Shown piece by piece: positions 17,839-52,606 of a DNA stretch of 64,000 bases. Source of the DNA: Ruditapes philippinarum. Lineage: Eukaryota. The position numbers and the translations under genes are program-made. The stretch's first letter is position 1; each line of letters opens with the position of its first letter. The notes beneath the pieces are model-generated. The model saw nothing but the letters and a program-made list of their open reading frames with translations, was not told the origin of the DNA and made no database searches. The stretch spans positions 1 through 64,000 of the forward strand of contig NW_026865001.1 of the NCBI RefSeq assembly GCF_026571515.1. Reading direction: 5' to 3'.

Positions 17839-18594
17839 TTACACTTTGACTGTAATATTAGATAGACAACCGCCATCTACAACATGCATCTGACCTGTGA
17901 CCATAGCTGAATGTTCACTAAGGATGTATAAAATCGGGCCAACAATTTCTTCTACTGTCGGAATTCTTCCCATCGGCGACCTAGATGAAAAGGTTTCCAC
18001 TGAACATTTTCCTTTTTCGATAAGGCTCTGTACCAATGGCGTGTTGACAAGTCCGGGATTCACTGAATTTACTCGTATTTTGTGAGGCCCTAGCTCCAGT
18101 GCGAACTGTTTTGTTACCATATCCATACCAGCTTTTGAAACAGCATATGGAAGACCCATTGGGAAAGCAGCTATGCCAGAAATGCTTGAACAATTTACGA
18201 TCGATCCTTTCACCTTTGCTTCAATCATTTTCTTTGCAACAACCTGTGAGCAATTTATTGCACTAAGTAAATTGTTGTCCAGTACGTGGTTTATGTATTC
18301 TTTAGGGCAATTAACAGCAGCGTAGTCATGACCTCCTATACCAGCATTGTTTACAAGCCCGTCCAAAACTTCCAGCTGTTCTAGTTTTTCTCTCGTACCC
18401 TCCCAGTCACTAAGGTCAGCAACAATCGGTATAATATCAGGACATTCTTCCACTAGACTATCAAGTGTAGATTTAGTCCTACTTAGAGCGTACACTTTGC
18501 AGCCAGCCTTATTTAATGCAACGGCAACTCCACGTCCTATTCCTTTTCCTGCTCCGGTAACCAGTACTTTCTTTCCTTTAAAATCGAACGGCAT
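17839..18594 (-). CDS. SDR1: DCXR/L-xylulose reductase-like classical SDR, 251 aa, no intron in CDS
   Basis: TGAGKGIG Rossmann motif, SRT basic residue (NADP(H) type), NNAG, catalytic S and YAVSK, ELGPHKIRVNSVNPG, TGQ..VDGG. Confidence 0.95.
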   Translation of the reverse strand: MPFDFKGKKVLVTGAGKGIGRGVAVALNKAGCKVYALSRTKSTLDSLVEECPDIIPIVADLSDWEGTREKLEQLEVLDGLVNNAGIGGHDYAAVNCPKEYINHVLDNNLLSAINCSQVVAKKMIEAKVKGSIVNCSSISGIAAFPMGLPYAVSKAGMDMVTKQFALELGPHKIRVNSVNPGLVNTPLVQSLIEKGKCSVETFSSRSPMGRIPTVEEIVGPILYILSEHSAMVTGQMHVVDGGCLSNITVKV

Positions 18595-18670
18595 ATTTGA
18601 TTTTCTCTCTCTATCTGTTTACGAATGAAAAATACGCCGCTATAGATGTACAATAAAATCACCATGTAAT

Positions 18671-18681
18671 GTGACTATGCA
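18671..18681 (+). promoter_or_regulatory. ARE-like element upstream of SDR1 (also 26515-26525, 34260-34270, 41467-41477)
   Basis: GTGACTATGCA / GTGACTGTGCA / GTGACTGTGCA / GTGATTGTGCA fit RTGAYnnnGCR, inside a conserved TGTGAYTRTGCATGCAGTCTAA block. Confidence 0.5.
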
Positions 18682-18753
18682 TGCAGTCTAACCATTATCT
18701 TTCAAATTCAGATATCAAAATAACTAAATATCTAGGTCAGAAATCGACTGTAT

Positions 18754-19165
18754 TAATAATATCTGTCATATTTTGCGGTTCGGATCGGAATATCCGTCCC
18801 GAGGTGACCCGCCCATTGGGCGGTAACGAGGCTTGCCGAGTTACCGCCCATGGGCGGGTGACCGAGGGACGGATATTCCGATTCGAACCGCAAACATATG
18901 TCAGATATTTTTTCTTGCATATTCTACCATATTCCATTATATTTTAAATTCTTTATCTTCATTTTCAATGAAAATTTATATCATTACAACCGTAACTACT
19001 TTCATTCAACAGCGTATGAATTACAAAATCATTCATAACGGTAAAATGACGTCATGTTTATCGTGCCATTGTACAGCACGCGACTCATCTGGAACCCCCC
19101 CATGCCAGATGAAATTTCCGGCATGGGTAAAACTAACGGAAACGCCAGTCTGATATGCAAGAAAA
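18754..19165. mobile_element. Copy-specific ~410-bp insertion starting with a ~150-nt hairpin
   Basis: Absent from SDR2/SDR3 upstream regions (CGACTGTATCATTTGTTCTG). Arms span 18758-18909 around loop GAGGCTTGCCGA; second inverted pair TTTTCTTGCATAT / ATATGCAAGAAAA. Confidence 0.8.
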
Positions 19166-20828
19166 TTTGTTCTGTTCATACTATATTTGAGGATGATAAT
19201 TTATTGATTGGTTTGATTATATGCCACATTGGCACTGTCAACGTCATATTGCAACTTACTTTAAGCTTTTCTGGTACCTCTTCTTTGATAATTTTAGGCA
19301 AGAATGAAAATTTGAGAAGAACAACCATCGTTCCTTTTGCTATCTAAATATCTACATCACATCAAAGCGTATTTAGCAATCTCATATGTCATATTTCGTA
19401 TTAAATTATGTCGTTTCAATTATCTTATTGTCTGTTCGAAAAAAAAGTTGTAACAAAGAATGTCCATGAATATTGTACATAAGCAGAATAAGATTTTCTA
19501 TTCAAGGAAATATGCGGCAATGTTAACCTGGATTGTTTAACATCTAGCAATTAGTTCGTAAATATGCCATTATCTCTTCAGAAAATACTGTTTTTGCTGC
19601 GACTATATAAAGACCTGGTTTTAATGAAGGATCGATCTTTATAGCTGACATTTTCTTCTCTCTTTTTTAACAACTTCTGGACCGAATAACATGTAAAACA
19701 TGCTCGATTGGCGTTCGATGTGTACGACGGTCACAGGGGCTTAAGCTGTAACCAGTAATACTGCCACCTGGGTATGGAGTTTTAGTTTTGAACATTAGGC
19801 AAGACACATTAGGCAATGGGTAGTTTGAAAGATGCCGTAGGCAGTTGCTAGTACGCGATAATTATGGTGCTGTCGTATATGGAATTCCGTACGTAACAGT
19901 TTTAATATGTACGTTGGCTGAATGGTTTTACTTTCACTTGCCTTTAGATATAGTTTGTTATTAACTTTAAATAGCCCGTAACCTCTCGAGTCTTTTTGAC
20001 ACCCACTACAGTTCGAAAATAATCCCAAAAGAATGCCTCAGTCATTTGCCACACATAAATATTGTACGTAAACAGAATAACATGTTCCTGAATAATTTAA
20101 TAGTTTCTTGCTACCATTTTAAGCTGAACATTTCACCATCAAGCAATTATTTCGTGCATACGCCATTAGGCTTTAAATATATACAAATGTGTCATATATT
20201 TTCATTTTGTTTACTTTCAAACAAAAATTTTAGAAACTACAGACCAGATTTACAGCTTTAAACACATCCCTTGTAATTTAAATTCGACCAAACAATGTTG
20301 AAAATGTAAAAAACCCATAAAAGCCCCCAAAACGAAATGGAGAACCTAAAACAAACCCTGCCTCATAATTCAGATATAATATCACAATCACTATCCACAA
20401 TCAAAGGTGAAGTGTTTTTTAATTTATGCATTATGTATGCTATGTCCATCCTCAAACCTATAAAAGTTAACATTGAACTCCCAATTTTTTGTGTTCTTTT
20501 AACCATATTATCTAAAAAAGACAAAAACTCAACCTTATAAGTTATAATACAATGATAATTCTACTGTTTTAAAAGGGATCAGTGAAGCACATTTACAAAA
20601 ACTTCTTATTTTTTTCCTGTTCTTAGGGCCCATTACAAAACAAGGATTAGACATCCTTTTTCTTAAAAGGGAAACTGTATTTTTAAATGAGCAAACTTTA
20701 AATTTTAAAACCCAAATTTAAAAAAAATTTTATTAATCTAACTGAGGGATAATAAAGAAGTTTTGTGTACAATGTACATCTTAGTAAAAAAATTTACATT
20801 GTCTATATAAAAGAGAATTTGTCAAACT

Positions 20829-20910
20829 TGTTATATCACATGGTGATGAGTATTTTGAAGGATTGAGATAATTATTTTGACTCAGCTGCATTCATATTTG
20901 AACACCCGTA
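20829..20910 (+). mobile_element. Right-end remnant of the mariner element (also 29917-30003, and split at 36087-36157 / 37377-37397)
   Basis: TCACATGGTGRTGAGTATTTTGAAGGA...ATATTTGAACACCC matches the 3' end of the 43425-44747 element. Confidence 0.8.
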
Positions 20911-22268
20911 GTCACCCCTTTTCCTTGACTTTATATGTATTAGATATGTTATCGGCACATTTGCAGAATATGCTTCAATACATGTATACAACCAAATATA
21001 TAAATAACATAAATTAAAAATAATTATGACAAAATTTAAAACCACTTTTTTTCAAACATAATACAATTAGGTTGCAACAGATTTCTTTCATTTACTTTAC
21101 AGTCATGTATTATAATATACATAATTTAGCATACCTCTTAACATACCTAAATACTTAAATATACCGTCGTTATGATGTTGCCCATTTGACATATATTCAG
21201 GACTGATTTTGAGAACTTGGCTCCCTATAAGATGCTAGAGGCATTTTGTAGTACAAGTGGTATCTTGGTATATTTTACCTATTTAAGGTATGCTGAATCC
21301 GATAAAGGTGGATACCAAATTGAAAAACTTGATCTTGACCATTGAAATGGCCATTTAAAATGACCACTAAAATGGCCGCCAAATTTCTTTATCATAAATG
21401 GATGATATATCAAATAAAAAATTTAAGGAAAGGAAAAGTCACAAAGCATGTTTAGGTAAAAACAAATTGGACACACAAACAGAATTAAAAAAAATATGGC
21501 CGAAAAATCCAAGATGGCAGACATTTTTCTATAGTAATATAGTAATATAATATATTAAAGATAGTACTGAAAATTTTAAGGCATTTAAACATATTTAGGG
21601 TTTACGCAGCTATCTGCTAGATTTTATCTGGCATTTATCATAACCTTATGCATATTATATGCCTTGGTTTTGAATAAATCTTGAAATCTTGAATCTTGAA
21701 ACTTTCCTGGTTTGGTCTGATAAAGGTACCATAGTATTCTACCAAATATATTTAACGAATGCTTTCATGTAAGAATATTTTGAGTGTATGACGATTATTT
21801 TTGACAAATATACAGAAAATTACAATACAGAAAATTACTATGGAGAGTGCAATATTAAAAAAAAATACTGTTACATTGTATAACAAAATAACAGTATTTT
21901 TTTTAAATAAATGGATATATTATTGCATAAATAACAAGGTTAAACACATTTTAGGTCAAATCATTGCCACTAGCACCTTAATTTGGGATGGTGCAGAGTC
22001 AGATTTAGTTTTCCGATAGCGATACATGTCTTCATTTGAAAGACAATACCGGGCAAGGACAGGACCTGAACTTGTTGTGTGCAAATTTGACAAAATGGCG
22101 TCAGATCTGGGACGATTATTTTGTCCCAGGTCGGAGTCATGAAAATTTAAAACACCCACCAGTATTTTCTCCAGGTAGTTAAGTGTGTTTTGTAGGCCTA
22201 GATGTTATTTTGATTTTTTTAACTGGTTTGAGAATGCTAAGAATACTGTAACATATTCACAGAAAATA

Positions 22269-23108
22269 TTTTATTACCCCCTCACTTTTTTCGTAATGTT
22301 AATTTCCCATAGGCCTCTGGGAGTTATTCTTACTGTTAATGCAAGTGTACAACGTGACTAAGAATTTTGTACTGTTACATAGGAACAGTATTTTTTAACA
22401 GTATAAAATCTGGTCACTAAATAAAATGAAATAAAATGGCCGTCATTTTTTTCTCTATTCTTTCTTATTTTCGACGATAGGGCATCGACTCTCATAAAAG
22501 TTAGTCCTTTGCACCCTAGATCGAGTTCTTTTCGCGTATAAAATATCTTTTTGTTGAATAGTCAAAAAATAAACAACCGTTTTCAACGGAAGTACGTAAT
22601 TTGTAATGTAAAATTTTTGTCAAACAAAAACAGCAACGATTAAACAGCAACAAAGGGATTTTTTAAAAATTTTTAAAAGTAAACTTCAGATAATTTGGAC
22701 AACATCTAGGATTCATCGTTATTTTTTAAATGAAACTTTTCCCAAAAACCATGCAAAAGAATATTCTGGTCAGGAGATCAATTTCACAGATATAACCTTA
22801 AATGGTTTTTTTGTTTTCTAAAAAATCGCTTTTTATTTTATGATGGTAGATATATCACTTTTTTCCCTAAAGAATAAAAAAAACACCCTTCTCTAAACCC
22901 CTACAGTCATTAAAATTTTCAAGGAAGGGAAGGTTTTTATAAAAATAGTTATTCCTTTGGTTTATTTTTGTTACATTTGGGATTTATTTAAAAATTCAGA
23001 TAACAGTATTGTCCGGTAATAAAATAAATAAAACATGTTTGTGGGCGTAAACAGTATTTATACGAGGGATATATTTTTACTTTACCCACAAATGTACCCA
23101 TGTTTATT
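22269..23108. mobile_element. Copy-specific ~840-bp insertion, class unresolved
   Basis: Absent at the paralogous position ~10028 (CAGGAAATATAATGTCACATG). Confidence 0.6.
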
Positions 23109-24171
23109 ATATAATTCACATGAATTAATTAATTTTTATTCCATCTATGCATGTGTGTGAATATTCGCAAAATATATACATACATGTATATTTATATTTT
23201 ATATACATTGTATATGTACTGACTAGCCTATGCAAGAAACATTAAAGCAACAGCTTATCAGCTATATCTTTGGATTATATAGAAATGTTTTCAACACCAC
23301 ATTGCGCTTTCGTTACCCATTTCAAAACTGTATGCTATGACACAATGATAACTTTTCCTAGCCGTGATGCAGTTTCGAACAAGAGCAAAAGAATGAGAAG
23401 CAGTGGCCTAGTGGTTAAGGTGTCTGCCTCTCAACCCGTGGGTCACGTATTTGAGCCCTATTCGTGTCACGACCATGTTTCTTCATGTGACACCAGCACT
23501 GGTTCGTTCCAAGAAGCAGACTCGAAAGTGGTAACTTTAAGTTCCAAGAACTTGTATCGCAATAGAGCTTAATTAAATGAATGCTCTGAAACCAAGAGCA
23601 AAAGAAAACACTTGACTAATAAAATACTTGAAATATCATTATGTATAGTTTTCTTTATAAATATGAAAACTATTCTGAAATGTCCAACTATTGCATCAAT
23701 TATGGATCGGTAGAAATGTTGTGATGGAACAGTCGTCTTAAAGTCATCAGAGTAGGTGAAGATTTTAAAAGAATGACGGAGGTTATTTATGATATTCGGG
23801 GGTCTGAGCTATAAACCTTGTCATTTATTAAATAGGCGGTGATAAATAAAACTAGAGTCTGTACTGATTTCAAGATATAATTAGATATTACCAAATTCTA
23901 TCGAAATCTAAATTTAGATATCAGAGTTATTAACCTTGTTATATATAAGATGTAATATTCATAATTATCCAAACTTTCAAGTAGTTACAATACATTATTT
24001 AGAAAGGCAAAATATTGGACATGGTACTTTCAGGTAATGAGCTGAACATTTTTTCTTATGTTATATCAATATTCTTATGTGTCCGCCGATATCAATGTAC
24101 AAATAGTAACATCCGTATAAGTGACTGAACATTGTCTTTATCGTTATCTTTTTAAAGATATCCTGCACAAG

Positions 24172-25158
24172 TAGTTTATTGGCTTGCAGCCACGGCTGCA
24201 AGCCATTTCATCTGGAAAACTTGTTCCGGTAAGGTGGTTTCCTGCTTACATCTGTTGGTGCATGATTGAACGGGAAACCAGCTGCGATCGTGCCAATCGC
24301 AACTTTTCGGCCTTTTCCGTCAGTCTTCGGATTAATGATAATAGCCGATGTAGTTCCGATTGCAATCGTGACAATTCGGGCGATTCCGTCATACTGCGGA
24401 ATAATATTACGGAAATCTAAGCTATTTTAGTTACTTCGGTAATCCCAGTTTGTGTATATAAATAGGATTTCTAATTTTACTTGATTTATCTTGTTCCGTT
24501 TCATTTGTTTTTCAAGACGCAAAAGTTAGTTTCTTTTATAATTGTTTTTTTTGTCTGTATTAGTTTTATACAATAGAGAATGGTGACTGTAGTATTATTC
24601 CGTCTTCAAAGGGTGGTCCTGCTTACCAAATCACGCATGATCGAGTTATATTTAGATCTACTGACCGCAATTCAACTTCTTGGTGAGGTAATCTAAAAAT
24701 AGCCCATGCATATCATTAGCCTTGCCATGTGCTGATCTATGTATCATAGTTGATAAATGCTTATTAATTGGTACCACGTAACGAAGTATTTTAGTGCATC
24801 TACTTGTCTAAAAAGCAAAGGAATGATTTCGCTGCGAAAAAGGGGAAATGAGATGTGCACACTTGTTTTCCTTCAGTATCACGTTAATATTTTTACGATT
24901 GATCATTTTCTTTATTAGTTTTATACAATAGAGAATAGATCTAAATCGTTTTGACAAAAAAATATTCGGTTTTCCAAAAAAAAAAAAAAAAAAAAAAAAC
25001 AAAAAAAACAACTAAATAAACCCTTTATGATATACAAATACCGTAATTCAAAAAAAAATAATGTGATAATAAATTGACCCCCCCCCCAAAAAAGAACAAT
25101 TTTAAAGGGTTGGGATGAAGGCACAACTGTGCAAGCCTTTCCTTTTAAAAGGAAACTT
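24172..25158 (-). mobile_element. Helentron/HINE-like insertion (~1 kb)
   Basis: Absent at paralog ~12072. Terminal hairpin TGGCTTGCAGCC-AC-GGCTGCAAGCCA with a matching subterminal TGCAAGCC near the other end (~25130); T-rich target; no clear TSD. Confidence 0.65.
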
Positions 25159-25672
25159 TATTTTTATTACTATGTCATACGATTACCCTAATAACGGAAA
25201 TGAGGTGGTGTGTATTAATGTTATCAAGGTCGGAATTGAGATGATTCATACTATTTTATAGCAATGGTAAATGCAGTTATAACAAAAGCTGTCTCGGGGG
25301 ACATCACATTTGAATAGTTTTATACTGGAAAAAATAACAAAAATCAGTTGCATATATATATTCCAAAATGGTAAACTATTGCATCGAATTGCAAGTGAAA
25401 CACATAATATAAAAATCTCCATATTGTATTCTTAAGTCTATACATTCAAGAAAATGAAATACTAGTAATAAAAGAGCAAAATACCGTTATAAAATTCATT
25501 TTACATCTAGATCTATCATGTTAAAAATAGTAACCACAGTGTTCATTTGGCAATTTGGTTTTTATAAATCCTTATACTATTAACTTTATGTAAAAGGCAG
25601 CGAAGAAGCTTGATTTCTTAAGACTCCAACTGCAGTGATACTTCCTCAGCATACGCATGTACACTCCTTTTT

Positions 25673-26428
25673 TTACACTTTGACTGTAATATTAGATAGA
25701 CAACCGCCATCTACAACATGCATCTGACCTGTGACCATAGTTGAATGTTCACTAAGGAGGTATAAAATCGGGCCAACAATTTCTTCTACTGTCGGAATTC
25801 TTCCCATCGGCGACCTTGATGAAAAGGTTTCCACTGAACATCTTCCTTTTTCGATAAGGCTCTGTACCAATGGCGTGTTGACAAGACCGGGATCCACTGA
25901 ATTTACTCGTATTTTGTGAGGCCCTAGCTCCAGTGCGAACTGTTTTGTTACCATATCCATACCAGCTTTTGAAACAGCATATGGAAGACACATTGGGAAA
26001 GCAGCCATGCCAGAAATGCTTGAACAATTTACGATCGATCCTTTCACACCAGCTTCAATCATTTTCTTAGCAACAACCTGCGAGCAATTTATTGCACTCA
26101 GAAGATTGTTGTCCAGTAAATGGTTTATGTATTCTTTAGGGCAATTAACAGCAGCGTAGTCATGACCTGCTATACCAGCAATATTTGCAAGCCCGTCCAA
26201 AACTTCCAGCTGTTCTAGTTTTTCTCTCGTACCCTCCCAGTCACTCAGGTCAGCAACAATCTGTATAATATCAGGACATTCTTCCACTAGACTATCCAAT
26301 GTAGATTTAGTCCTACTAAGAGCATACACTTTGCAGCCAGCCTTTTTTAATGCGATAGCAACTCCACGTCCTATCCCTTTTCCTGCTCCGGTAACCAGTA
26401 CTTTCTTTCCTTTAAAATCGAACGGCAT
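25673..26428 (-). CDS. SDR2: DCXR-like SDR, 251 aa (start at MPFDF)
   Basis: Intact ORF with the same motifs; NNAG changed to NIAG and VNPG to VDPG. Start assigned by alignment with the paralogs. Confidence 0.92.
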   Translation of the reverse strand: MPFDFKGKKVLVTGAGKGIGRGVAIALKKAGCKVYALSRTKSTLDSLVEECPDIIQIVADLSDWEGTREKLEQLEVLDGLANIAGIAGHDYAAVNCPKEYINHLLDNNLLSAINCSQVVAKKMIEAGVKGSIVNCSSISGMAAFPMCLPYAVSKAGMDMVTKQFALELGPHKIRVNSVDPGLVNTPLVQSLIEKGRCSVETFSSRSPMGRIPTVEEIVGPILYLLSEHSTMVTGQMHVVDGGCLSNITVKV

Positions 26429-27033
26429 ATTTGATTCTCTCTCTCTCTGTTTCTCTTTCTGTTTACGAATGAAAAAGACGCCGTTATATATGTGCAACAA
26501 AATCACCATATAATGTGACTGTGCATGCAGTCTAACCATTATCTTTTCAAATGCAGATGTCAAAATAACTAAATAACTAGGTCAGACATCGACTGTATCA
26601 TTTGTTCTGTTCATACTACATGTATATTTGAGGATGATAATTTATTGATTAGTTTGATTATAATTCATTGGCACTGTCAACGTCATATTGCAACTTACTT
26701 TAAGGTTTTCTCGTACCTCTCCTTTGATTATTTTAAGCAAGAATGGAAATTTGAGAAGAACAACCAACGTTCCGTTGGCTATCTAAATATCTACATCACA
26801 TCAAAGCGTGTTTAGCAATTTCGTATCAAAGTATGTCGTTTCAATTATCTTATTGTCTATTCGGAAAAAAATTGTCACAAGGAATGCCCATGAATAGTGT
26901 ACATAAGCAGAAAAAATTTTCTAATCAAAGTAATATGCTGCAATGTTAACCTGGATTGTTTAACATCTAGAAATTAGTTCGTACATACGCCATTATCTCT
27001 TAAGAAAATACTGTTTTCGCTGCGACTATATAA

Positions 27034-28540
27034 GGGGGCAGGGGACCTAAAAACGAACTGTTTTGTATTTCAGTGTGGCCAGAAACACAAATCCAAATAT
27101 TTCAAAATCTGTTTCACAGGCAGATAACCAGTTGCACAGCATTATTCAATGATATATGACATACATTGAAGAAAATAATAGTTTGCATGCATTGCCCCTT
27201 AAAGAAATGACTGACAGCAATTTATATTTACCCCCACCCACAGGGAAATCTGTCATTATTTTATTAAATCTATATATATAATGTTATATTATATATATAG
27301 TGGGAAAGGAAAAAAAATATGACAGAATCCCCTGTGCCCCGGCCCTGCCAAAATCACACCTAAATATACCAATATGGGCAATCTTCATGAAGGTGCAGCA
27401 TACTCCAGAATCCGCCCGATTCCTTTAGAAATATCACTAACACGCAGTGCAAGCTATGACATTTTCAAAAATGACCAATAAAGTGTCTGTCATACGTTTA
27501 GATTTTTGCACAAAATTTATCCGAAATTTCTTACTTGTTTGGCGCTAACTGTCAAAGCTTGATTTTTAACCTTTTCACCTCCATTCGTTCGGAGAGTCAC
27601 AAATACATACAAAGCTACCAAAATGCTTAGTTTCGGGTAAAAACCCCAAAATACTGCTCATTTCCTACACACAAACAAGAAAGAATAACAATGACAGAGA
27701 AATATCAGTAGGTTCCAGTACCTTCAAAACTTCATGTCTGAGTTAATATGAAAAAGGCAAAGCCTCAAAGCGAGCTCGATTTTCGTTTACCGTAAAATAG
27801 TTTAAAATAATCATTCATTTTTATTTTACATTTTCCGTTTTTAAAATTGTCATTCGGTATTTTATACACTGCTTCCGTTTATTCTGGTTCCTCCTTTCTA
27901 TTATGGTTCCTTTAAAAGTGCGCAGGACACCAGTGTTCGCTTCCGTTTTCAATCAGAGTACATCGGCTTTTATCCTTAACTTGTAATTCGAAAAGTTGCG
28001 ATGTGTTCAATTCGGCATTCGGACGAAAGTTTTCAAAACCATCACTTAGCAGGTACTCGCGTTACCGTAAAGCTCGCTTTGCGAGCAGGCCCTTCGGGCC
28101 AGCTCGTCGAGCTCGCTAATATGAAAAAGGCAAAGCCGCCTCAAAGCGAGCTCGATTTTCTTATACCGTAAAATAGTTTAAAATAATCATTCATTTTTAT
28201 TTTACATTTTCCGTTTTAAAATTGTCATTCGGTATTTTATACACTGCTTTCGTTTATTCTGGTCCCCCTTTCTATTATGGTTCCCATATAAGTGTGCAGG
28301 ACACCAGTCTACCCTTCCGTTTTCAATCAGAGTACATCGGCTTTTATCGTTATCTTGTAATTCGAAAAGTTGCGATGTGTCCAGTTCGGTACTTCGGACG
28401 AAAGTTCTCAAAACCATCACCTAGCAGGTACTCGCGTTACCGTAAAGCTCGCTTTGCGAGCAGGCCCTTCGGGCCAGCTTGTCGAGCTCGCTATTAAAAA
28501 ATTTGACCGGGGCCATAATTCGAATATGTCCCCTGCCCCC
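27034..28540. mobile_element. PIF/Harbinger-like non-autonomous element, TAA TSD
   Basis: TAA|GGGGGCAGGGGAC...GTCCCCTGCCCCC|TAA; empty site GCGACTATATAAAGAC in paralogs (~19600, ~34795). Confidence 0.88.
27744..28491 (+). repeat. Head-to-tail dimer of a ~373-bp unit (Helentron/HINE-like)
   Basis: Units start TAATATGAAAAAGGCAAAG at 27744 and 28117. Each has subterminal inverted GCGAGCTCGA / TCGAGCTCGC and a GGCCCTTCGGGCC hairpin. Confidence 0.85.
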
Positions 28541-38737: not shown

Positions 38738-39173
38738 GCCCCGTGTTCACGAAGATTGAAGGATCAGGATCAAGATCAGGATCATTTAAAACTCTAATAT
38801 TCTTCATTGTTTATCCTCATAGATTAAATATCTAATATTAATTTGATAAAACTGGACTTAAAATAGCAAGTTTATTAAATTGTAGAATAAATTTATTGTT
38901 ATTTTTGCAAGATACGGGCATTTTACAGTTAATCAAAATATTGATCCTGATCATAAAATTCATGGTTATTTTGATCCGAATATTTTTGTATTTGTTTTGT
39001 TATTTGTTGATTTTATCCCAAAATAGTTTCTTTGCAAATCAGCATTTTTTTACATTTTGAATATTTACAATTTAATTCAACAAAACACTATTAATTTTAA
39101 TTACATAATACAATTGCAATAAAAAAAGGACCACTTGACCCTGATCCTGATCTTTTCTTAGTGAACACGGGGC
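38738..39173. mobile_element. PIF/Harbinger-like MITE, 3-bp TSD
   Basis: CCG|GCCCCGTGTTCAC...GTGAACACGGGGC|CCG; empty site AAGCCCCGGTTGG at ~31993. Confidence 0.85.
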
Positions 39174-40612: not shown

Positions 40613-41368
40613 TTACACTTTGACAGTAATATTAGATAGACAACCGCCATCGACAACATGCATCTGACCTGTGACCATAGCTGAATGTTCACTAAGGAGG
40701 TATAAAGTCGGGTCGACAATTTCGTCTACAGTCTGAATTCTTCCCATTGGCGACCTAGATATAAAGAAATCAACTGAAACCTTCCCTTCTTCGATAAGGC
40801 TCTGCACTAATGGCGTATTAACAAATCCAGGATTCACTGAATTCACCCGTATTCCATGAGGTCCGAGTTCCAATGCGAACTGCTTTGTTACCATATCCAT
40901 ACCTGCTTTTGAAACAGCATATGGAAGACCCATTGGAAATGCAGCTAAGCTTACAATGCTTGAACAATTTACGATCGACCCTTTCACCTTTGCTTCAATC
41001 ATTTTCTTTGCAACAACCTGTGAGCAATTTATTGCGCTAAGTAAATTGTTGTCCAGTACATGGTTTATGTATTCTTTAGGGCAATTTAAAGCATCGTAGT
41101 CGTGACCTCCTATTCCAGCATTGTTTACAAGCCCGTCCAAAACCTCAATCTTTTCTAGTTTTTCTCTCGTATCCTCCCAGTCACAAAGGTCAGCAACAAT
41201 CGGTATAATGTCCGGACATTCTTCCACTAGACTATCAAGTGTAGGTTTAGTCCTACTTAGAGCGTATACTTTGCAGCCAGATTTATTTAATGCAATAGCA
41301 ACTCCACGTCCTATTCCTTTTCCTGCTCCAGTAACCAGCACTTTCTTTCCTCTAAAATCAAACGGCAT
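40613..41368 (-). CDS. SDR4: DCXR-like SDR, 251 aa
   Basis: Intact ORF; TGAGKGIG, NNAG, YAVSK, IRVNSVNPG. Confidence 0.95.
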   Translation of the reverse strand: MPFDFRGKKVLVTGAGKGIGRGVAIALNKSGCKVYALSRTKPTLDSLVEECPDIIPIVADLCDWEDTREKLEKIEVLDGLVNNAGIGGHDYDALNCPKEYINHVLDNNLLSAINCSQVVAKKMIEAKVKGSIVNCSSIVSLAAFPMGLPYAVSKAGMDMVTKQFALELGPHGIRVNSVNPGFVNTPLVQSLIEEGKVSVDFFISRSPMGRIQTVDEIVDPTLYLLSEHSAMVTGQMHVVDGGCLSNITVKV

Positions 41369-43424
41369 ATTTAATTCACTTTTTCTCTATATAAGCATGC
41401 ATGTAACTTGAGATATAAATACGCTGTTATCAATGTGCAGTTAACGGTCCAACAAAAAAAATTAATGTGATTGTGCATGCAGTCTAAGCGTAATCTTTGC
41501 ATAACTATGTCAAGCGATCAATTGCAAACATGCACGTAAATACCGGTATTGTATTGCATTTTTGGTTAGTCAAAACTATTTACGGAATGATATTGTATTG
41601 AATAGTTTGATTATGTGTCACAATGACACATTGCAACTTACGTTCTATTATTATAGACAGGAGCGGCAATTTGTGTTTAACAACTGGCTTTCCTTCAGTC
41701 AACTTGTTATTTACATCAAATTCAATTATATAACTCTCGTTACTCGATATCCAAGGGACTGGGCATTTCACTTCGAGAGAAACGGAATTCGAGTAACGTG
41801 GAACTACCACCATTACATGTATATACATGTGCCTGATTGAATGTGCAAAGGAGTAGGTTTGTTATTGTTGTTAGCGGAAATGCTGCAATATTTAACCATT
41901 GAAATGACGGTAAATCACTTACAACTACAAATTATAAATGAACAAAAATATATCATTCAAAATTTAATACATATATATTAATAGTGAAACAGAAACACAC
42001 AATTACATTTGATTTATTTCATCATCGGACGAAAACGAAATTAGCAACTATCGTGAACCGGAAGTACAAATATGACATATAATTTATTAAACAAATGTCC
42101 TTTACGTTCATAACACACATCAATACCTAGGATATTATTTGACTAACACCCGTCAGACTGGCACAAGTCAACTTTCTTTAAGAAATGTAATTAAATTTTA
42201 ATTTAGTTATCTAACTGTTAAAACCAATTAAGTCCTGGAACGGATTAAAGCCACTTTTACGACGTGTCAATAATACATGATGACCGGCATTTGAAAATTA
42301 CTATGAAACGTGTAAATCATGAGTGACAGCATCTCACCTTGATGTCGCCGACCTTTGATCAGTCGGTTGTTTTCACACTTCGACTTATTGATATGTAAAT
42401 ATGTTGGAATTTAATTGAGGGACCAATTTTTTTTCGACTAAACAGGAGTCTCGGTAAGTCAAAATTTGACCTAAGCGGAGTTAAAATACAAAGATAAAGA
42501 AGGAAATTTGACGGGATTTTAGAAATTATTCGACTAAGGCAGAATTTTGAGTAAATCGATTTTCACTTATTGAGAGTCAACTTATATATGTATATCTTTA
42601 TATTTTTATCTATATTTGTTTGAATATATATCGTTTCCATTATCTTATGGACTGTTCTAAAAAGAAACCAAGCAAAGATTTCGACTGTCATTTACCACAC
42701 ATAAAATTGTACGTAAACAGTATAACATGTTCTGGAACAACGTAATATAGTGGTCTTTGCTGCCATATTAAGCTTGGTTTTACACCATCTAGCAATTATT
42801 TCGTGCATACGCCATTAGCTCTTAACGATATACAAACATATCTTTACAAACATGTTTTCAGATAGTTAGGATTTTGTTTTATTCAAACAATAATTTTAAT
42901 AATAAATAATAAACTACAGACAGGATATTTACAGTTTTATACAATTTATAGAATCCAAAGTCCAGTGTAAAATTCGAATCCACAATGTCGAAAATTGCCA
43001 CAAACAAAGTTGATGTGTTTTGTTAATTAAAAGCAGCGGTAAGTGTCAATGTTTATAACCTATGTAAGTTTTTCATTGACATTCAAATTTGACGATTTTA
43101 CCAGTTATCCGAAATTAAAAAAAACAAACTTTAAAGTTAAAACATGTGATGCATACTTTCTGTTTTAAAAGCGATCAGTTAAACACATTCTACGAAGTTT
43201 CTCAGTTTACCCTGTTCTTGATACGGCCAGTTACTACACAACAGTGATAAGACATTATTCTTTCTTCAAATAAAACTGTTTAAGAAGAGTAACAATGACT
43301 TAAAAACTTGATTAACTAACTTACAGAAATGATATTATTAGATCCGTGTACATCTTCATAAATTCTTACGTTTCCTATATAAAAGATAATTTATCAAATG
43401 TTGAAGCATTGGAAGCAAAGCATA

Positions 43425-44747
43425 CGAGAGGTGTTCAAATATGAAGGCAGCAAGGCCAATATCGCGCTTTTTTACCACGTTTTGCACGAGCTAAGTACAT
43501 GTATCGCAAAGATAGTTGTCTGAGCTCTCAATGGATACAATACATGTTTAAATCATTTTAGTCTAGCTTTGATACTAGTAATAGCTCGATTAACGCTATA
43601 TACTCGTGTATACTTAAGCTAAAATGGTTGGGAAAAGGTCTCCTTTCACTGGCTAAACACGATCCTATATCACGAACCGCTGTATGCCAAAGCCATATTT
43701 AATGAAACATGTCGTATTTATGGGAACATTGAACGTTCTTTTTCATCTATCACAGGGTTTTGTAAGAAATTTGAAAGTGGTGTGGATTCAGTAAAAGTAC
43801 CTCATGCATGCCGTCCGAAACCTGCAACTTCGTCAAAAGTGGTTGAAAAAGTAAAGGATTTGATTGCAACTAATGCAGGATTTACAAATAGGTATATAGT
43901 TAAATGCGTTGGTATTTATGTAGAAGCCGCTCATACAATTCTCAGACGTGATTACAGAAGGATAAGTGCCAGATTGATACCCCATGTCCTTACAAAAAAA
44001 GCAAAAACTTGCTCGGGTAAGAATTTCCAAACAATATTGTTGAAACAGTTCTCTAAATACAACAATCGATCTTTCGCAAGTATCATCACTTGCGATGAGA
44101 CGTGGGTTCACTTTTATGAGCCGAAGCGAAAGATACATAACAAAATATGAGCAACCAAAGGAAGTCAAAGACTTTGCATAGCAAAACGCACCATGAGCGT
44201 CAGATAGGTCATGTATGTAGTTTTCTTTACCAATCAAGGTCTTGCTATTCAAATTGCCGTACCAAAGGGTATATCGGTAAATGCCAAGTTTTACAGAGGC
44301 AATTTAAGGACCTTCATAAATTAAAGAAATATTTCAAAAACCGTCGACCAGCAACTGTTCTCCGTGGTGTCAGGATGTTCATCACAATGCTTCGTCACAC
44401 AAAGCGGCCATTGTACGAGAATATCTGAAACAGGAAAAGGTTGTCGAGCTTCCTCACCCTCCTCATTCGCCCCCTGTGACTTTTTCCTATTTCCGATGCT
44501 AAAAAAACACCTTGTTGGAAGAAAATATCAAACGCGAAAAAATCTCGGTTCGGCGATTATCCAGTGTCTGAACAGTTTACCTCGAAATGATTATGAAAAC
44601 GCATTTAAAAACTGTTTTAAAATACTAAAACATTGTATTTCACATGGTGGTGAGTATTTTGAAGGAATGAGATAATAATTTAGCCACTGTTTGTTAAGCA
44701 CTTCTGAAAAAATTGACCCAGTTGTATTTATATTTGAACACCCCTCG
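43425..44747 (+). mobile_element. Full-length but dead Tc1/mariner element (~1.3 kb)
   Basis: TA|CGAGAGGTGTTCAAATAT...ATATTTGAACACCCCTCG|TA; contains a transposase pseudogene. Confidence 0.92.
43624..44675 (+). pseudogene. Mariner (DD34D-type) transposase pseudogene
   Basis: Fragments in several frames: ISARLIPHVL (WVPHxL-like), IITCDETWVHFYEP, HHNASSH (second catalytic D changed to H), APCDFFLFPMLK with YSPDL lost, CISHGGEYFE. Confidence 0.9.
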
Positions 44748-46681
44748 TACGCACATAAACATAAGCCTACAGTAAATGATTTTACAATTCATGCAACATA
44801 TAATTTCAACCGCAGTACCTTGTCAGGAGGAGCTCTTTTCCTCGATACTTTATATGTCTCGACATTTTATATGTATCAGATGACAGATAAAATATACACA
44901 TTTACGTTATCGGCACATTTGCAGAATAAATTTCAGTACATGTATATAATAAAAAAATATGACTATCATAAATCATTTGTGTAAATTGAAATAATTACAC
45001 AATTGAACAACAATTTATTCAAACATTATACAGTTAGGTAGCACCAGATTCCTTTCATTTACTTCACAGTCATGTATAATACTACACATAGATTAGCATA
45101 ATTCTTAACGCACCTAAATACTTAATATACTGTCGCTATGAGAAGGTGCCCGTTTGACATAGTCAAAGTACACAATCTATTTGGAAAAAAATAATGATTG
45201 TTAAGCCAGATACATTGACCTGAATTTTTCATATAAAACAAATAATAATGATAATAATAATAATGAAAATATTTCGTGGTCGTCCGTCCGTACGTCTGTT
45301 AGCAGTTTAGTGTCTGGTCTGTATTTATTGAACCGGTGAAAAAGATTGAAACTACTTGGCAGAAATGTTAGCCCAATGATCCGATGTGCAGAATACAGAT
45401 TTGACCTTTCTCAATCTTAGTCATTTTGTATCAGTTTCAAAATGTCCTGTCCGCTCATTATCTTTTGAACCAATAGAAAGAAATTAAAAATTTTGGCATA
45501 AATATTACTTATAACAAGATGATGAGCAGAACCTGAGATCAAAATTGTACCCGCTTCGGAAATTATATTCATGAAGACTTGTATATGAAAACACATTTAA
45601 GTTTCATTATGCGGAACTACAATATCTACAGATTAGATTTTAAGCATGCAGCATCTACAAAACTCATATGAATCATGTGCCTTGGTTCGATATTAGCCCC
45701 GCCCCAGGGGTCACTTGATTTATATAGACTTATATAGGGTAAACACATCTAAAACGTAATGCGTGAATCTACGATGTCCAGAGCGTAGCTATTTGGCATG
45801 GATCACCATTTTTTTTATCAAAAATAACTGGTATTAATCATGCCCCTTGCGTCAATATTGGCTCGCCTAGTGGGTCATTTATTTAATATATAATTGTGAA
45901 GGAAAACACATTTGAGTCTTATTTTGGTGAAACTAAAATGCCTAGTTGTAGCATTGCCTTGTTGGTCTTTACAAAACTAGCATTACTCATGCCGTTGACC
46001 ACGCCCCTGGGGTCAATTTGATTAAATAGTTTTGTATGAGAAAAGGCGTTTCGGTCTTATATTGTGAGACTACAATGCCAATAGCTTAGATATTAAGCAT
46101 GAAGCATTAACTTGTGAACGTCTGCAAAATTATAAATAATCTTACTCCTGGGACCAAAACTAGCCTGCCCCGGGGTCATTAGATTATAGGAAAACATATT
46201 TAGGTATTATAATATAATATTTGTTTTGAAACTACAGAGCACAAATCTAAGATATTTGGCATTTGGCATTAATTTGTAGTTTTCTACAAAAGTTCTATCA
46301 ATCATGACCTAAACATCAAAATAAGCCCTGTCTTGCAAGTCACATAACTTTATCTAGTCTAAGGTATATGAAACAGATCTTCTCTTATTGTGGATAAATT
46401 CTTCGCCTCTATATTTGACATAAAGCATTATCTAGTGGACCTTTATCAATATTTATGCACTTAGGGTAAAAATGTCTCAGCCTTGGAGCCTATATAGTAT
46501 TAAGATAAAATATTTTTCAGACAAGTTTCTTAATTGGGTCTCTACCCTAATTGAAAGATTATTACTGTAGAGCGTATATTGTCCCGCCTTTACGGTGCTC
46601 TTTTTAGGTATACCTTCCAAGGGCCGAACGATGGCCGACCAAAGTCCATATTTACTCTTTTGGCAATCACCTGCAATATGT

Positions 46682-48950: not shown

Positions 48951-50570
48951 ACAGGGTATAATGCCAAGTCAGGCCTATGCAAATAAAATGTCATTAGTGA
49001 ATCGCCCACATACCTTGATAGATAAAAAAGTTATGGTCTGGGCACTAAATATAACCTGCAACAGACCAATAACCGTTAATGATTTTGTATTTGTGTCTTT
49101 TGTGGTCTTAAAATAGAAATAACAACTATTCAAATGTATGTCTGTTTACATATACAGGGAAGTTATTACATTATATTTCTTTAATGAATTTATTGCTACT
49201 TGCACGTGCAGATCTAGCACTGATTAAGATTTGGCACTGAAAATCTATGCCTCTTTTGAAAAAGCTCAAATTTGTGCTTCATGTAAAACTTCCCTTAGGC
49301 AGGGGATATTGATAACCATTTCTGAAGCAACATCGTTTACAGTGTGTTTGTTTTCTGTTAGGTTTTATTATGCCAATGATGCAATGAACAAATGACTCCC
49401 TCGGCGATTCACATAGTCATATTCCCAAATGTGATATTGGCGTAACATATATTCTAAGTTTAGCCATTGTTCTGTAACAAAAATTCTGATGATGTATTCA
49501 CTAATACATATTAGATGAGAGATAAATGTATTGTAATGAAAAACAAATGCAATTTGAATAAGTGAAGAAACGTAATTCTGGAAATAGGGGTCTTTGTTGT
49601 TAACCATTTAAAATTTTCGCATGACATTAGTAAGTATTAAGAAATTCTTAAATCATAGAGAATGGCAATACTTCATGTTTGCGATAAATAAGATACTCCT
49701 AAACTATTAACATTTTTGTATAAAGACAAAGTAAAAGAAACAACATTCTGGCTGTATGCAGAAATAATATTTGAGATTTTGAACTTGTTATATGTAATGT
49801 GATTGATGGCATGAACCTTTGAATTGTATTGTTTTAGCCTTAGGTTTTCCATTTCTTATTCATGTATATTAAATGATTTAAGTAATAGTGATTGTAGATT
49901 AAATATGATATTCGAAGGCCAAATGCGAGACCACTCGTGGGGAATATACGGTATATGTGAATGTGTTATGAAATTTGTCAATTATGATGGGGATGCATAT
50001 AACGACGAACGAGTAAACCAGGGCAATCTTTCTATACACAATTAAAAGTTCTAATTGGAAATAATTATTACAATATATATACTAGAGTTCTGAAACATGC
50101 TTAGCATTGGAGATGCTATGGAACAAAAATTTAAAGACTAAAATCTCTTTTTTGTTACAAAGAATACATAGTTTTAGAGAATACTCTTTTACAGTGAAAT
50201 CAAATTTTTATCAGAAATCTTGACGCAGGCGAGGACTCCGGTTTTGGTGTCGGGTTGAGTAGTATATCTCTCCATACAATTTGTATAATCGAACTGTCAT
50301 GAATTGTTTGGTATCAATAATAACAAAGTAAGTCTTATTAAGATATATATTTAATACGAATATGCGCATATAATCAAGTAAATACGAAAATGCGAAAACC
50401 TTCATAACAATTTGATTATAACATAATTTGAATATATGTATACTTTCCCATGTTACTCACTTATGTTTGTTATATAAACAATTGTTGCTTTCTAGAAAAT
50501 GTAGCAAAGATCACTTCTACACTTCTAATAAATACATCAACAGTACTAAAATGTGAAGTATTCATTTGTT

Positions 50571-51326
50571 TTACACTTTGACAGTAATATTAGACATGCA
50601 ACCGCCATCTACAACATGCATCTGACCTGTGACCATAGCTGAATGTTCACTAAGGAGGTACAAAATCGGGTCAACAATTTCTTCCAGGGTCAGAATTCTT
50701 CCCATTGGCATCCTAGAGGAGAAAGTATTTTCTGACAATGTGCCCCTTTCAATAAGACTTTGAACTAATGGCGTACTAACAAGGGCGGCATTAACTGAAT
50801 TGACACGAATTTCGTAAGGTCCGAGCTCCAGTGCGAACTGCTTTGTTACCATATCCATACCAGCTTTTGAAACATTATACGGAAGGCCTTTTGGGAAAGC
50901 AGCCAAACTTCCTGTGCTTGAGCAATTAACTATTGCCCCTTTCACCTTTGCTTCAATCATTTTCTTTGCAACAACCTGCGAGCAATTTATTGCACTAAGT
51001 AGATTGTTGTCCAGTATATGTTTTATGTATTCTTTAGGACAATCAACAGCATCGTAGTCGTGACCTCCTATACCAGCATTGTTAACCAGCCCGTCCAAAA
51101 CCTCAATCTTTTCTAGTTTTTCTCTCGTATCCTCCCAGCCACAAAGGTCAGCAACAATCGGTATAATATCCGGACATTCATCCACTAAACTATCAAGAGT
51201 AGATTTTGTCCTACTGAGAGCATACACTTTGCTGCCAGCTTTATTTAATGCAATAGCAACTCCACGTCCTATTCCTTTTCCTGCTCCAGTTACCAACACT
51301 TTCTTTCCTCTAAAATCGAAAGGCAT
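50571..51326 (-). CDS. SDR5: DCXR-like SDR, 251 aa
   Basis: Intact ORF; YNVSK active site; VNAALVST in place of VNPG. Confidence 0.95.
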   Translation of the reverse strand: MPFDFRGKKVLVTGAGKGIGRGVAIALNKAGSKVYALSRTKSTLDSLVDECPDIIPIVADLCGWEDTREKLEKIEVLDGLVNNAGIGGHDYDAVDCPKEYIKHILDNNLLSAINCSQVVAKKMIEAKVKGAIVNCSSTGSLAAFPKGLPYNVSKAGMDMVTKQFALELGPYEIRVNSVNAALVSTPLVQSLIERGTLSENTFSSRMPMGRILTLEEIVDPILYLLSEHSAMVTGQMHVVDGGCMSNITVKV

Positions 51327-51850
51327 ATTTGATTTTGCTTTTAGGACAATTTAAGATAAAAATCCGTCATATAGTGTGCATTAACATGAATGACACCTAA
51401 AGATCTTTATTATCTGTATCGAAGCATTTTATCTAATCGTTAACTTTTCAAATTCGGGTTATACCAGTTATATGGATATTCATATCATGAATTTTATAAT
51501 AAATAAAATCATAGCATCTACTCGTCCAATATAGTTGTTTTGTACAAGAATTGTTTAATTGATATTGCTACCAAGTTTGTTTTAGTTTTGTTTATGGCGA
51601 CTTCAGGGTATGCTTTATAATAGAATGCGTTAAATTCCATAAAACGTGACCCACATCTTTCGTTATTTTGTTTACTATCTTACAACGGTAACGGTAACCT
51701 TCACAATCTATTTTGACAATGATAATGGAATGCGAAAATGTCAGTCAGTAATATCCCGTATTGACCTTTCTGTGCCACGATATTTATTGTGCTTCTCTTT
51801 CTGTGGGTGTTTATTCAAACTTTGTAAATGCTAGTGACAACATTGAAAAA
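51327..51850. promoter_or_regulatory. Putative bidirectional promoter (524 bp between the divergent SDR5 and SDR6 ATGs)
   Basis: Head-to-head geometry; no recognisable TE in the interval. Confidence 0.55.
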
Positions 51851-52606
51851 ATGCCTTTCGATTTTAGAGGAAAGAAAGTGTTGGTAACCGGAGCAGGAAA
51901 AGGAATAGGACGTGGAGTTGCTATTGCATTAAATAAAGCTGGCAGTAAAGTGTATGCTCTCAGTAGGACTAAATCAACATTAGATAGTTTAGTGGAAGAA
52001 TGTCCGGATATTATACCGATTGTTGCTGACCTTTGTGACTGGGAGGATACGAGAGAAAAACTAGAACAGCTGGAAGTTTTGGACGGGCTTGTTAACAATG
52101 CTGGTATAGGAGGTCACGACTACGATGCTGTTGATTGTCCTAAAGAATACATAAAACATATACTGGACAACAATCTACTTAGTGCAATAAATTGCTCGCA
52201 GGTTGTTGCAAAGAAAATGATTGAATCAAAGGTCAAAGGATCAATTATAAATTGTTCAAGCGTTGGAAGCTTAGCTGCTTATCCAAGGGCTCTTCCATAC
52301 TCTGTTTCGAAAGCTGGTATGGATATGGTAACAAAGCAGTTTGCTCTTGAACTTGGACCAAACGGAATACGTGTGAATTCAGTGAATCCCGCTGTTGTTT
52401 ACACACCTCTAGTTCAAAATCTGGTAGAAAACGGAACATTGTCATTAGAGACAGTTATTAATAACATACCAATGGGAAGAATTTTAACAATGGAAGATAT
52501 TGTTGATCCAATCATGTACCTTTTGAGTGATCATTCAGCTATGGTAACCGGTCAGATGCATGTGGTAGACGGTGGCTGTATGTCAAGTCTTATTGTTAAA
52601 GTATAA
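51851..52606 (+). CDS. SDR6: DCXR-like SDR, 251 aa (start at MPFDF), inverted relative to the other copies
   Basis: Intact ORF; YSVSK; VNPAVVYT resembles DCXR VNPTVVMT most closely of the six. Confidence 0.95.
   Translation: MPFDFRGKKVLVTGAGKGIGRGVAIALNKAGSKVYALSRTKSTLDSLVEECPDIIPIVADLCDWEDTREKLEQLEVLDGLVNNAGIGGHDYDAVDCPKEYIKHILDNNLLSAINCSQVVAKKMIESKVKGSIINCSSVGSLAAYPRALPYSVSKAGMDMVTKQFALELGPNGIRVNSVNPAVVYTPLVQNLVENGTLSLETVINNIPMGRILTMEDIVDPIMYLLSDHSAMVTGQMHVVDGGCMSSLIVKV

What the first reader, a model, noticed from the sequence alone, without database searches (positions are those of the whole stretch)
17839..52606. Six-gene DCXR-like carbonyl reductase array with diversifying substrate pocket
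The cofactor-binding N-terminus and catalytic S/Y/K are nearly invariant. Variation concentrates after the catalytic Ser (ISGIAAFPMG, ISGMAAFPMC, IVSLAAFPMG, TGSLAAFPKG, VGSLAAYPRA) and in the lid after VNP (GLVNT..GKCSVETFSSRS, GFVNT..GKVSVDFFISRS, ALVST..GTLSENTFSSRM, AVVYT..GTLSLETVINNI). The Gln/His/Trp pocket residues of vertebrate DCXR (SSQ, NH, WSD) are absent, so xylulose is unlikely to be the substrate. Inference: a lineage-specific NADPH-dependent reductase panel for hydrophobic or reactive carbonyls (lipid-peroxidation products, dietary/algal compounds, quinones). Best candidate for an undescribed system here.
Basis: partly seen in the sequence, partly recalled or inferred. Interest (0 to 1): 0.7.

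Follow-up and report, generated by a model that had tools for sequence, protein, structure and literature searches.

The report
Clam carbonyl-reductase array with guarded pockets
A clam carries five intact and one broken intron-free copy of an enzyme gene related to xylulose reductase; the copies have likely swapped much of their DNA while keeping different predicted substrate pockets, which likely makes them a small set of carbonyl-clearing enzymes, a fairly ordinary kind of gene expansion.

Summary
The array is real, but it holds five intact 251-aa single-exon SDR genes and one frameshifted copy (C); copy B is altered at conserved NNAG/NP positions. All quoted motifs are present. The nearest solved relatives are human DCXR and mouse CBR2 (TM 0.93/0.92). 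The His and Trp of canonical DCXR are lost, and an F/Y-P pair as in CBR2 is present. The genome also has intron-containing DCXR-like genes that keep His (3 of 3 examined) and Trp-Ser-Asp (2 of 3), so this is a derived side branch. It is not peculiar to this locus: 14 more single-exon relatives lie elsewhere in the genome, and the branch spans Mercenaria, Mya, Mactra and a unionid mussel. Pocket changes are in excess (24/42 sites vary vs 43/209), but dN/dS there is 0.23 and site models find no positive selection. The conserved N-terminus is partly explained by gene conversion. Silent divergence peaks over codons 166-202 (p=0.009), as expected if selection shields different lids from conversion. 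Substrates are untested. The scan had not noted this before. Verdict: an apparently unreported bivalve subfamily, of a known kind.

The parts
17839..18594 (-). Copy A, intact single-exon DCXR/CBR2-like SDR, 251 aa (pocket ISGIAAFPMG)
   Evidence: no departure from family-conserved columns
25673..26428 (-). Copy B, intact ORF; mosaic with a C-like 5' part and an A-like 3' part; V81A, N83I and N179D at columns conserved in 62-63 of 65 relatives, so possibly impaired
   Evidence: (49 consecutive silent sites identical to A, codons 128-251, p=0.0003)
33417..34177 (-). Copy C, frameshifted at codon 27 (1-nt deletion near 34099), with a 2-codon insertion and changes at 6 conserved columns (D78Y, G79K, V81A, N83I, P180L, G234S); probable pseudogene
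   Evidence: not confirmed or refuted in other runs
40613..41368 (-). Copy D, intact (IVSLAAFPMG), covered by contigs of 4 of 4 RNA or likely-RNA runs
   Evidence: 6 of 6 listed variants synonymous
50571..51326 (-). Copy E, intact (TGSLAAFPKG; NAAL lid shared with Mercenaria P0005/P0006), covered by contigs of 3 of 4 runs
51327..51850 (.). 524-bp spacer between head-to-head copies E and F (possible shared promoter, inferred)
51851..52606 (+). Copy F, intact, inverted; 5' part (about 160 codons) homogenised with the other copies, 3' part the most divergent (VGSLAAYPRA)
   Evidence: E-F silent differences 12/122 vs 27/51, p=0.0005
17601..45211 (-). Tandem segmental units of about 7-8 kb carrying A-D with shared flanking DNA (about 70-92% identical blocks)
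   Evidence: self-BLAST

Best explanation
This is a tandem array of five intact and one broken single-exon short-chain dehydrogenase genes from a bivalve side branch of DCXR, likely born by retroposition and likely working as NADPH-dependent reductases of non-sugar carbonyls, with partly different predicted substrate pockets. Shown: gene anatomy; 7-8 kb duplicated units; kept catalytic N108-S137-Y150-K154 and basic K17/R39; loss of the His and Trp of canonical DCXR; separate intron-containing DCXR-like genes in the same genome; patchwork silent-site identity between copies. Inferred: (1) an ancient retrocopy, freed from the xylulose role, radiated in heteroconch bivalves; (2) unequal crossing-over made A-D and an inversion made the E/F pair; (3) gene conversion keeps homogenising the cofactor-binding half and the tail, while the segment around the lid (about codons 160-205) escapes, most likely because mixing lids is selected against; (4) each intact enzyme would pass hydride from NADPH to a carbonyl held by Ser/Tyr, in a pocket lined by I/T/V138, F/Y144, P145, L191 and I/V192 that is more hydrophobic and CBR2-like, so it would favour dicarbonyls, aldehydes, ketones or quinones over pentoses; (5) B and C are decaying, as expected under birth-and-death evolution.
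For: Fold: TM 0.93 to human DCXR 1pr9 and 0.92 to mouse carbonyl reductase 1cyd, the top 2 of at least 500 matches; same top two by sequence. 20 full-length single-frame relatives in the genome, 14 outside the window on 11 contigs. Exon-split DCXR-like genes with H-x-x-Y in 3 of 3 loci fetched and WSD in 2 of 3; GT/AG junction contexts are visible. The clam branch plus Potamilus forms a clade at 100/99, apart from canonical DCXR of scallops and Sinanodonta. Conversion: all 5 pairs of F with A-E have a silent-site breakpoint at codons 159-163 (p 0.0005-0.0015 among 21 pairs); B matches A over 49 consecutive silent sites. The N-half tree makes the window copies one clade (99/99), whereas in the C-half E, F, A-D and two Mercenaria proteins form a polytomy, and E is closer to Mercenaria P0006 (99/116) than to its neighbours (87-94/116). 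Silent divergence among A, D and E: pocket 13/24, N-half 30/115, tail 6/33; best window codons 166-202, p=0.009. The other clusters show no such pocket peak (e.g. L013-L015 2/35, L016-L018 1/36) and GC3 is flat. Pocket omega 0.23 vs 0.11 (p=0.008). Six Mercenaria sister-paralog pairs repeat the pocket excess (65/249 vs 41/442). Versions from other samples keep the pocket: E vs P0003 differs at 1 of 42 pocket sites and 9 of 209 others; 18 of 21 listed RNA variants in D and E are synonymous, and the 3 that are not lie in the N-half.
Against: No enzyme assay exists. Site models find no class with omega>1 (own implementation, 5-7 sequences, 116 codons, low power). With the 5 intact copies only, the pocket-vs-rest omega difference is not significant (p=0.07). 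Putative orthologs also show a pocket excess (59/209 vs 62/365), and the paralog-vs-ortholog contrast is marginal (p=0.06; p=0.03 with the 3 single-copy pairs only; p=0.16 for window pairs). The silent peak rests on non-independent pairs (D-E alone p=0.065), starts about 15 codons upstream of the lid, and could arise because diverged DNA itself blocks conversion. The AU test does not reject monophyly of the window copies in the C-half (p=0.45). Expression of A, B and F is not shown copy by copy. The single-exon state outside this genome was not tested. The role of residues 137/143/146/190/191 in DCXR sugar binding is recalled, not read (one search found no such paper).
Confidence: 0.6

Rival explanations
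1. Neutral birth-and-death array: the copies are largely redundant carbonyl reductases; pocket changes reflect the normal tolerance of SDR surface loops, and the divergence island is a mechanical by-product of where conversion tracts happened to fall.
For: Pocket omega is far below 1 and there is no positively selected class. Orthologs also vary more in the pocket. One of 6 copies is broken and another altered at conserved columns. A second sample holds an A/B recombinant (P0089).
Against: The silent peak has homogenised DNA on both sides in A, D and E. The pocket is kept among versions from other samples while the N-half varies. The E-type pocket is shared with Mercenaria.
Confidence: 0.3
2. 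The enzymes act on a dedicated endogenous substrate class (steroids, retinoids, pigment or osmolyte intermediates) or have a non-catalytic gamete/adhesion role, as described for mammalian DCXR/CBR2 in sperm, rather than clearing reactive carbonyls.
For: Some subfamily members are conserved 1:1 across clams with a fixed pocket (L019 vs Mercenaria P0074: 3/41 pocket changes). DCXR and Cbr2 are described as moonlighting sperm/epididymal proteins (PMC4376396, passages).
Against: Nothing positive points to it; tissue of expression is unknown because run metadata are coded. The catalytic tetrad is fully kept.
Confidence: 0.07
3. Part of the array is an assembly artefact: B/C or A/B are mis-joined haplotypes, or the frameshift in C is a sequencing error.
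For: The deletion in C adjoins an A-run. No C-specific contig was listed for the 2 large runs laid. L011/L012 elsewhere look like haplotigs.
Against: The copies differ at 9-43% of synonymous sites and sit in distinct flanking units. The E/F pair recurs in an independent metagenome record set (P0003 and P0091, each with a longest contig of 3951 bp). A B-type 5' contig occurs in 2 other runs.
Confidence: 0.03

Closest known systems
Dicarbonyl/L-xylulose reductase (DCXR; human 1pr9)
   Same: Fold (TM 0.93, 43% identity), TGAGKGIG motif, K17/R39, N-S-Y-K tetrad, ELGPHKIRVN segment.
   Different: His146 becomes G/C/A and Trp191 becomes I/V; Gln137 becomes I/T/V; the CDS has no introns; several copies; the genome has separate intron-containing DCXR-like genes.
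Mammalian tetrameric lung carbonyl reductase CBR2 (mouse 1cyd)
   Same: A DCXR offshoot that lost Q/H/W and carries F-P at 143-144, as these copies do; TM 0.92.
   Different: Independent origin: bovine CBR2 is sister to bovine DCXR, far from the clam branch; the resemblance is convergent and its functional meaning is inferred.
Duplicates under gene conversion with a selected peak of divergence (red/green opsins, RHD/RHCE)
   Same: Homogenised flanks around a divergent functional segment (PMC3924837, passages; here).
   Different: Here the peak lies inside one intronless CDS, the functional difference is untested and no population data were analysed.
Bivalve retroposition-plus-tandem-duplication expansions (nAChRs)
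   Same: Intronless copies in tandem arrays beside intron-rich parents (PMC6896357, passages).
   Different: A metabolic enzyme family of about 20 members, not 99-217 receptors.

Membership tests
Classical SDR superfamily | Rossmann fold with TGxxxGxG and adh_short/adh_short_C2 match above cut-off | tested here: met
   PF13561 157-167 bits vs cut-off 27 in 3 of 3 copies scanned; model pLDDT 94.5
Classical SDR superfamily | Catalytic N-S-Y-K tetrad | tested here: met
   N108, S137, Y150, K154 invariant in all six copies
Classical SDR superfamily | NNAG motif | tested here: inconclusive
   Kept in A, D, E, F; NIAG in B and C, where Asn is kept in 63 of 65 relatives
DCXR/CBR2 family (broad) | Closest solved relatives and placement on the tree among DCXR homologs | tested here: met
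   Top two hits by sequence and by fold are 1pr9 and 1cyd; the tree held DCXR homologs only
DCXR/CBR2 family (broad) | Basic K17 and R39 for NADPH (role recalled) | tested here: met
   Both align with 1pr9/1cyd and are invariant; cofactor use itself not measured
Canonical L-xylulose reductase (DCXR ortholog) | His146 and Trp191 in the pocket (role recalled) | tested here: not met
   G/C/A147 and I/V192 in the window copies; His and Trp are kept in canonical bivalve, insect and vertebrate DCXRs
Canonical L-xylulose reductase (DCXR ortholog) | Orthology and multi-exon gene | tested here: not met
   Separate clade from canonical bivalve DCXR; single exon, while split genes exist elsewhere in the genome
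Canonical L-xylulose reductase (DCXR ortholog) | L-xylulose and alpha-dicarbonyl reduction | not testable with these tools
   needs an enzyme assay
Mammalian CBR2 | Orthology to the mammalian DCXR duplicate | tested here: not met
   Bovine CBR2 groups with bovine DCXR at 99/94
DCXR/CBR2 family (broad) | Homotetramer | not tested
   No complex prediction was run
Positively selected (diversifying) gene array | Site class with omega>1 | tested here: not met
   M1a=M2a; M8 vs M8a 2dlnL about 0.2; pocket omega 0.23-0.24; low power
Conversion-with-selected-peak duplicates | Conversion tracts plus a local peak of silent divergence at the functional segment | tested here: met
   scan p=0.009 for A/D/E, pairs not independent
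Conversion-with-selected-peak duplicates | Fixed paralog differences in the peak and shared polymorphism outside it | tested here: inconclusive
   Only three proteins from other samples and a cut variant table; these agree

The most novel reading that the evidence does not exclude
An unnamed, retrogene-derived DCXR subfamily of heteroconch bivalves (about 20 genes in this clam) has converged on the mammalian CBR2 pocket and forms a carbonyl-detoxification panel. Selection guards each copy's substrate lid against ongoing gene conversion, so the DNA itself marks the specificity segment (codons about 160-205), an opsin-like divergence peak inside a single-exon enzyme gene.
Probability: 0.3. Interest if true: 0.5.

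Novelty: new member of a known kind. Interest (0 to 1): 0.32.

Why it matters
If the pockets differ in function, sediment-dwelling clams have an overlooked phase-I carbonyl-reducing family, relevant to ecotoxicology and as a source of ketoreductases. The genes are auto-labelled 'L-xylulose reductase-like' although the His and Trp of that enzyme are gone. The natural lid variants on a near-identical scaffold allow a clean swap experiment on SDR specificity. The evolutionary pattern (retrocopy, tandem array, conversion, decay) is well known, which caps the surprise.

Tried and rejected
Positive selection: rejected on present data. Mutation hot spot as the cause of high 3' silent divergence: not favoured, because other clusters show no pocket peak, GC3 is flat (0.31-0.36), and the excess appears in all three degeneracy classes, on small counts; E vs the outgroup L007 does show a 3' excess (p=0.0015), so rate differences are not excluded. 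Testing the frameshift in C with other runs was inconclusive: the contig with the extra base has a B-type signature, the contig over the 3' half is mostly D-type, and contigs cannot show absence. RNA support for C was rejected as cross-mapping (loose end of A/E/F type). RNA depth on F (one bin in one run) may be cross-mapping from E's converted 5' half. Literature: 10 searches. The three pairing 'xylulose reductase' with mytilus, ruditapes or bivalve each returned one paper with a single mention (PMC6754070, listing only); none described a bivalve DCXR expansion. Subscription papers and supplements were not seen and may mention these genes. One DCXR structure paper sought by a recalled id was not held. 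Earlier scan notes: one unrelated hit by sequence, none by words. No complex prediction was run.
Full report
Observation. Six loci with the start MPFDF and the motif TGAGKGIG lie in the stated span: A 18594-17839, B 26428-25673, C 34177-33417, D 41368-40613 and E 51326-50571 on the minus strand, and F 51851-52606 on the plus strand, head-to-head with E across 524 bp. A, B, D, E and F are uninterrupted 251-codon frames. C loses one base at codon 27 and stops at once; the rest continues in another frame and carries a two-codon insertion. Self-BLAST shows that A-D sit in duplicated units of about 7-8 kb. Among the five intact proteins 67 of 251 positions vary: 24 of 42 in the post-Ser loop (138-149) plus lid (180-209), 25 of 135 in the N-half and 18 of 74 in the remaining C-half.

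Identity. Pfam gives adh_short_C2/adh_short for the 3 copies scanned. The best PDB sequence matches are human L-xylulose reductase 1pr9 (E 1e-53) and mouse carbonyl reductase 1cyd (E 1e-50), far ahead of the rest. A model built on a 73-sequence alignment (pLDDT 94.5) matches the same two at TM 0.93 and 0.92. N108, S137, Y150, K154, K17 and R39 are invariant. Aligned to human DCXR, Q137 reads I/T/V, H146 reads G/C/A and W191 reads I/V, while F/Y144-P145 matches the F-P of mouse CBR2. That these positions govern sugar binding, and that K17/R39 set NADPH preference, is recalled; a search for the mutagenesis work found nothing. The SDR catalytic scheme is taken by analogy from passages of PMC2741203. 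A database model of copy C is labelled Ruditapes philippinarum on a 203,792-bp contig, the length of the window's contig, so the window is inferred to be Manila clam.

Family context. The genome holds 20 near-full-length single-frame matches, 6 in the window and 14 on 11 other contigs, plus broken remnants; some may be haplotigs. It also holds exon-split DCXR-like genes. The 3 fetched keep H-x-x-Y, and 2 of 3 keep WSD. Among 87 homologs at E<=1e-60, the named single-domain ones are from Ruditapes, Mercenaria, Mya and Mactra; 10 Mercenaria proteins share one 86-Mb record (whether they are adjacent was not shown). A second search added Potamilus and more Mactra copies. In a 54-protein tree the clam branch plus Potamilus is one clade (100/99), joined by one scallop and one ark-shell protein (99/96), apart from canonical DCXR of scallops and Sinanodonta; bovine CBR2 is sister to bovine DCXR. 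The genome's own split genes were not placed on the tree. Canonical bivalve DCXRs also lack the Gln, so only His and Trp are diagnostic. Retroposition is inferred from the single-exon CDS beside multi-exon parents; no poly-A remnant is left, and exon structure in other species was not tested. The same route is reported for bivalve nAChRs (PMC6896357, passages).

Gene conversion. On codons whose amino acid is invariant, every pair of F with A-E has a breakpoint at codons 159-163 (E-F 12/122 vs 27/51; p 0.0005-0.0015, 21 pairs tested). B is identical to A over 49 consecutive silent sites (codons 128-251, p=0.0003) but C-like in its 5' part. N-half proteins of the window form one clade (99/99). 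In the C-half, F, E, A-D and Mercenaria P0005/P0006 are unresolved, and E is closer to P0006 (99/116) than to any neighbour (87-94/116), though monophyly is not rejected (AU p=0.45). In proteins from other samples, Ser32, shared by E and F here, is Cys in both counterparts, and one protein is an A/B recombinant. So the 'invariant N-terminus' is partly homogenisation.

Selection. With my own GY94/F3x4 implementation on codons 136-251 (7 and 5 sequences; C read with an unknown codon at its break), M2a does not improve on M1a, nor M8 on M8a. Pocket omega is 0.23-0.24 against 0.11-0.13 for the rest of the C-half (p=0.008 with 7 sequences, p=0.07 with 5), and omega=1 is rejected. Pocket excess also occurs in 6 Mercenaria sister-paralog pairs (65/249 vs 41/442) and, more weakly, in 5 putative ortholog pairs (59/209 vs 62/365); the contrast between them is marginal (p=0.06). 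The most suggestive result is silent: among A, D and E, 13 of 24 pocket codons differ against 30 of 115 in the N-half and 6 of 33 in the tail. The best 25-codon window is 166-202 (permutation p=0.009; D-E alone p=0.065). The 8 pairs from other clusters show no comparable pocket-specific peak. Such a peak is the described signature of selection holding a difference against conversion (PMC3924837, passages), but divergence can also block conversion mechanically.

Decay and expression. Against 65 relatives, A and D depart from no conserved column, E from two and F from one; B has V81A, N83I and N179D, and C has six changes besides the frameshift. Contigs from 4 RNA or likely-RNA runs cover D (4 of 4) and E (3 of 4), while the stretches 34328-35655 and 49600-50263 have no depth in any. 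Of 21 listed variants in D and E, 18 are synonymous and the other 3 lie in the N-half; the table was cut. F, A and B are not shown copy by copy, and C could not be confirmed in two large runs.

How it most likely works. Each intact copy would bind NADPH through the Rossmann half and reduce a carbonyl held by Ser137/Tyr150, under a lid that has lost the His/Trp of canonical DCXR and resembles CBR2. Non-sugar dicarbonyls, aldehydes, ketones or quinones are therefore likelier than xylulose, which the split DCXR genes would still handle (all inferred). The array turns over by unequal crossing-over and conversion; A, D, E and F likely keep distinct lids, while B and C decay. I give this 0.6, redundancy with neutral loop drift 0.3.

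Novelty. Ten literature searches found no description of a bivalve DCXR expansion; subscription papers and supplements were not seen. The scan's earlier notes held nothing relevant. The genes are already auto-annotated, and every ingredient (DCXR offshoot with an altered pocket, retrocopy arrays, conversion) is known, so this is a new member of a known kind; interest 0.32.

Noticed in passing
L025:11-877 (-), just past the window end (contig 64011-64877): A 289-aa open frame matching ligand-gated ion channel LBD and transmembrane domains without introns, like the intron-poor nAChRs of bivalves.
   Followed up: partly
L026 (contig 74001-84000), minus strand: A homeodomain exon (RTSFSRLQIMELEKRF...WFQNRRTKW), Tlx-like by recall.
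   Followed up: no
window 46742-47511: 157-bp tandem repeat, 4.9 copies, with by far the highest contig depth in all 4 RNA or likely-RNA runs; probably a high-copy transcribed repeat.
   Followed up: no
window 43623-44675 (+): Broken mariner-like transposase (TCDETWVH, SFAPCDFFLFP; family recalled), no Pfam match.
   Followed up: partly
window 36206-37320: Inverted arrays of 22/30-bp CATCGC/ACCATCG repeats, foldback-element-like.
   Followed up: no
window 61786-62340 (-): 184-aa frame resembling hAT/ZMYM-type transposase N-termini by recall; no Pfam match.
   Followed up: partly
G000 C13332, C2263, C2902, C15069, C3234: Intron-containing DCXR-like genes are themselves multi-copy, with repeated exon sets on C13332 and C2263; L022 has an altered pocket (SSIAAIRTTAYH, WGD).
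   Followed up: partly
L019 (G000 C8315:56601-57347): Most conserved single-exon subfamily member (INGLNPMRECMAY), nearly unchanged in the pocket in Mercenaria and Mya; a candidate for a dedicated endogenous substrate.
   Followed up: partly
L024 (G000 C11765:146000-149500): Decayed copy of the L007 gene about 36 kb from it.
   Followed up: partly
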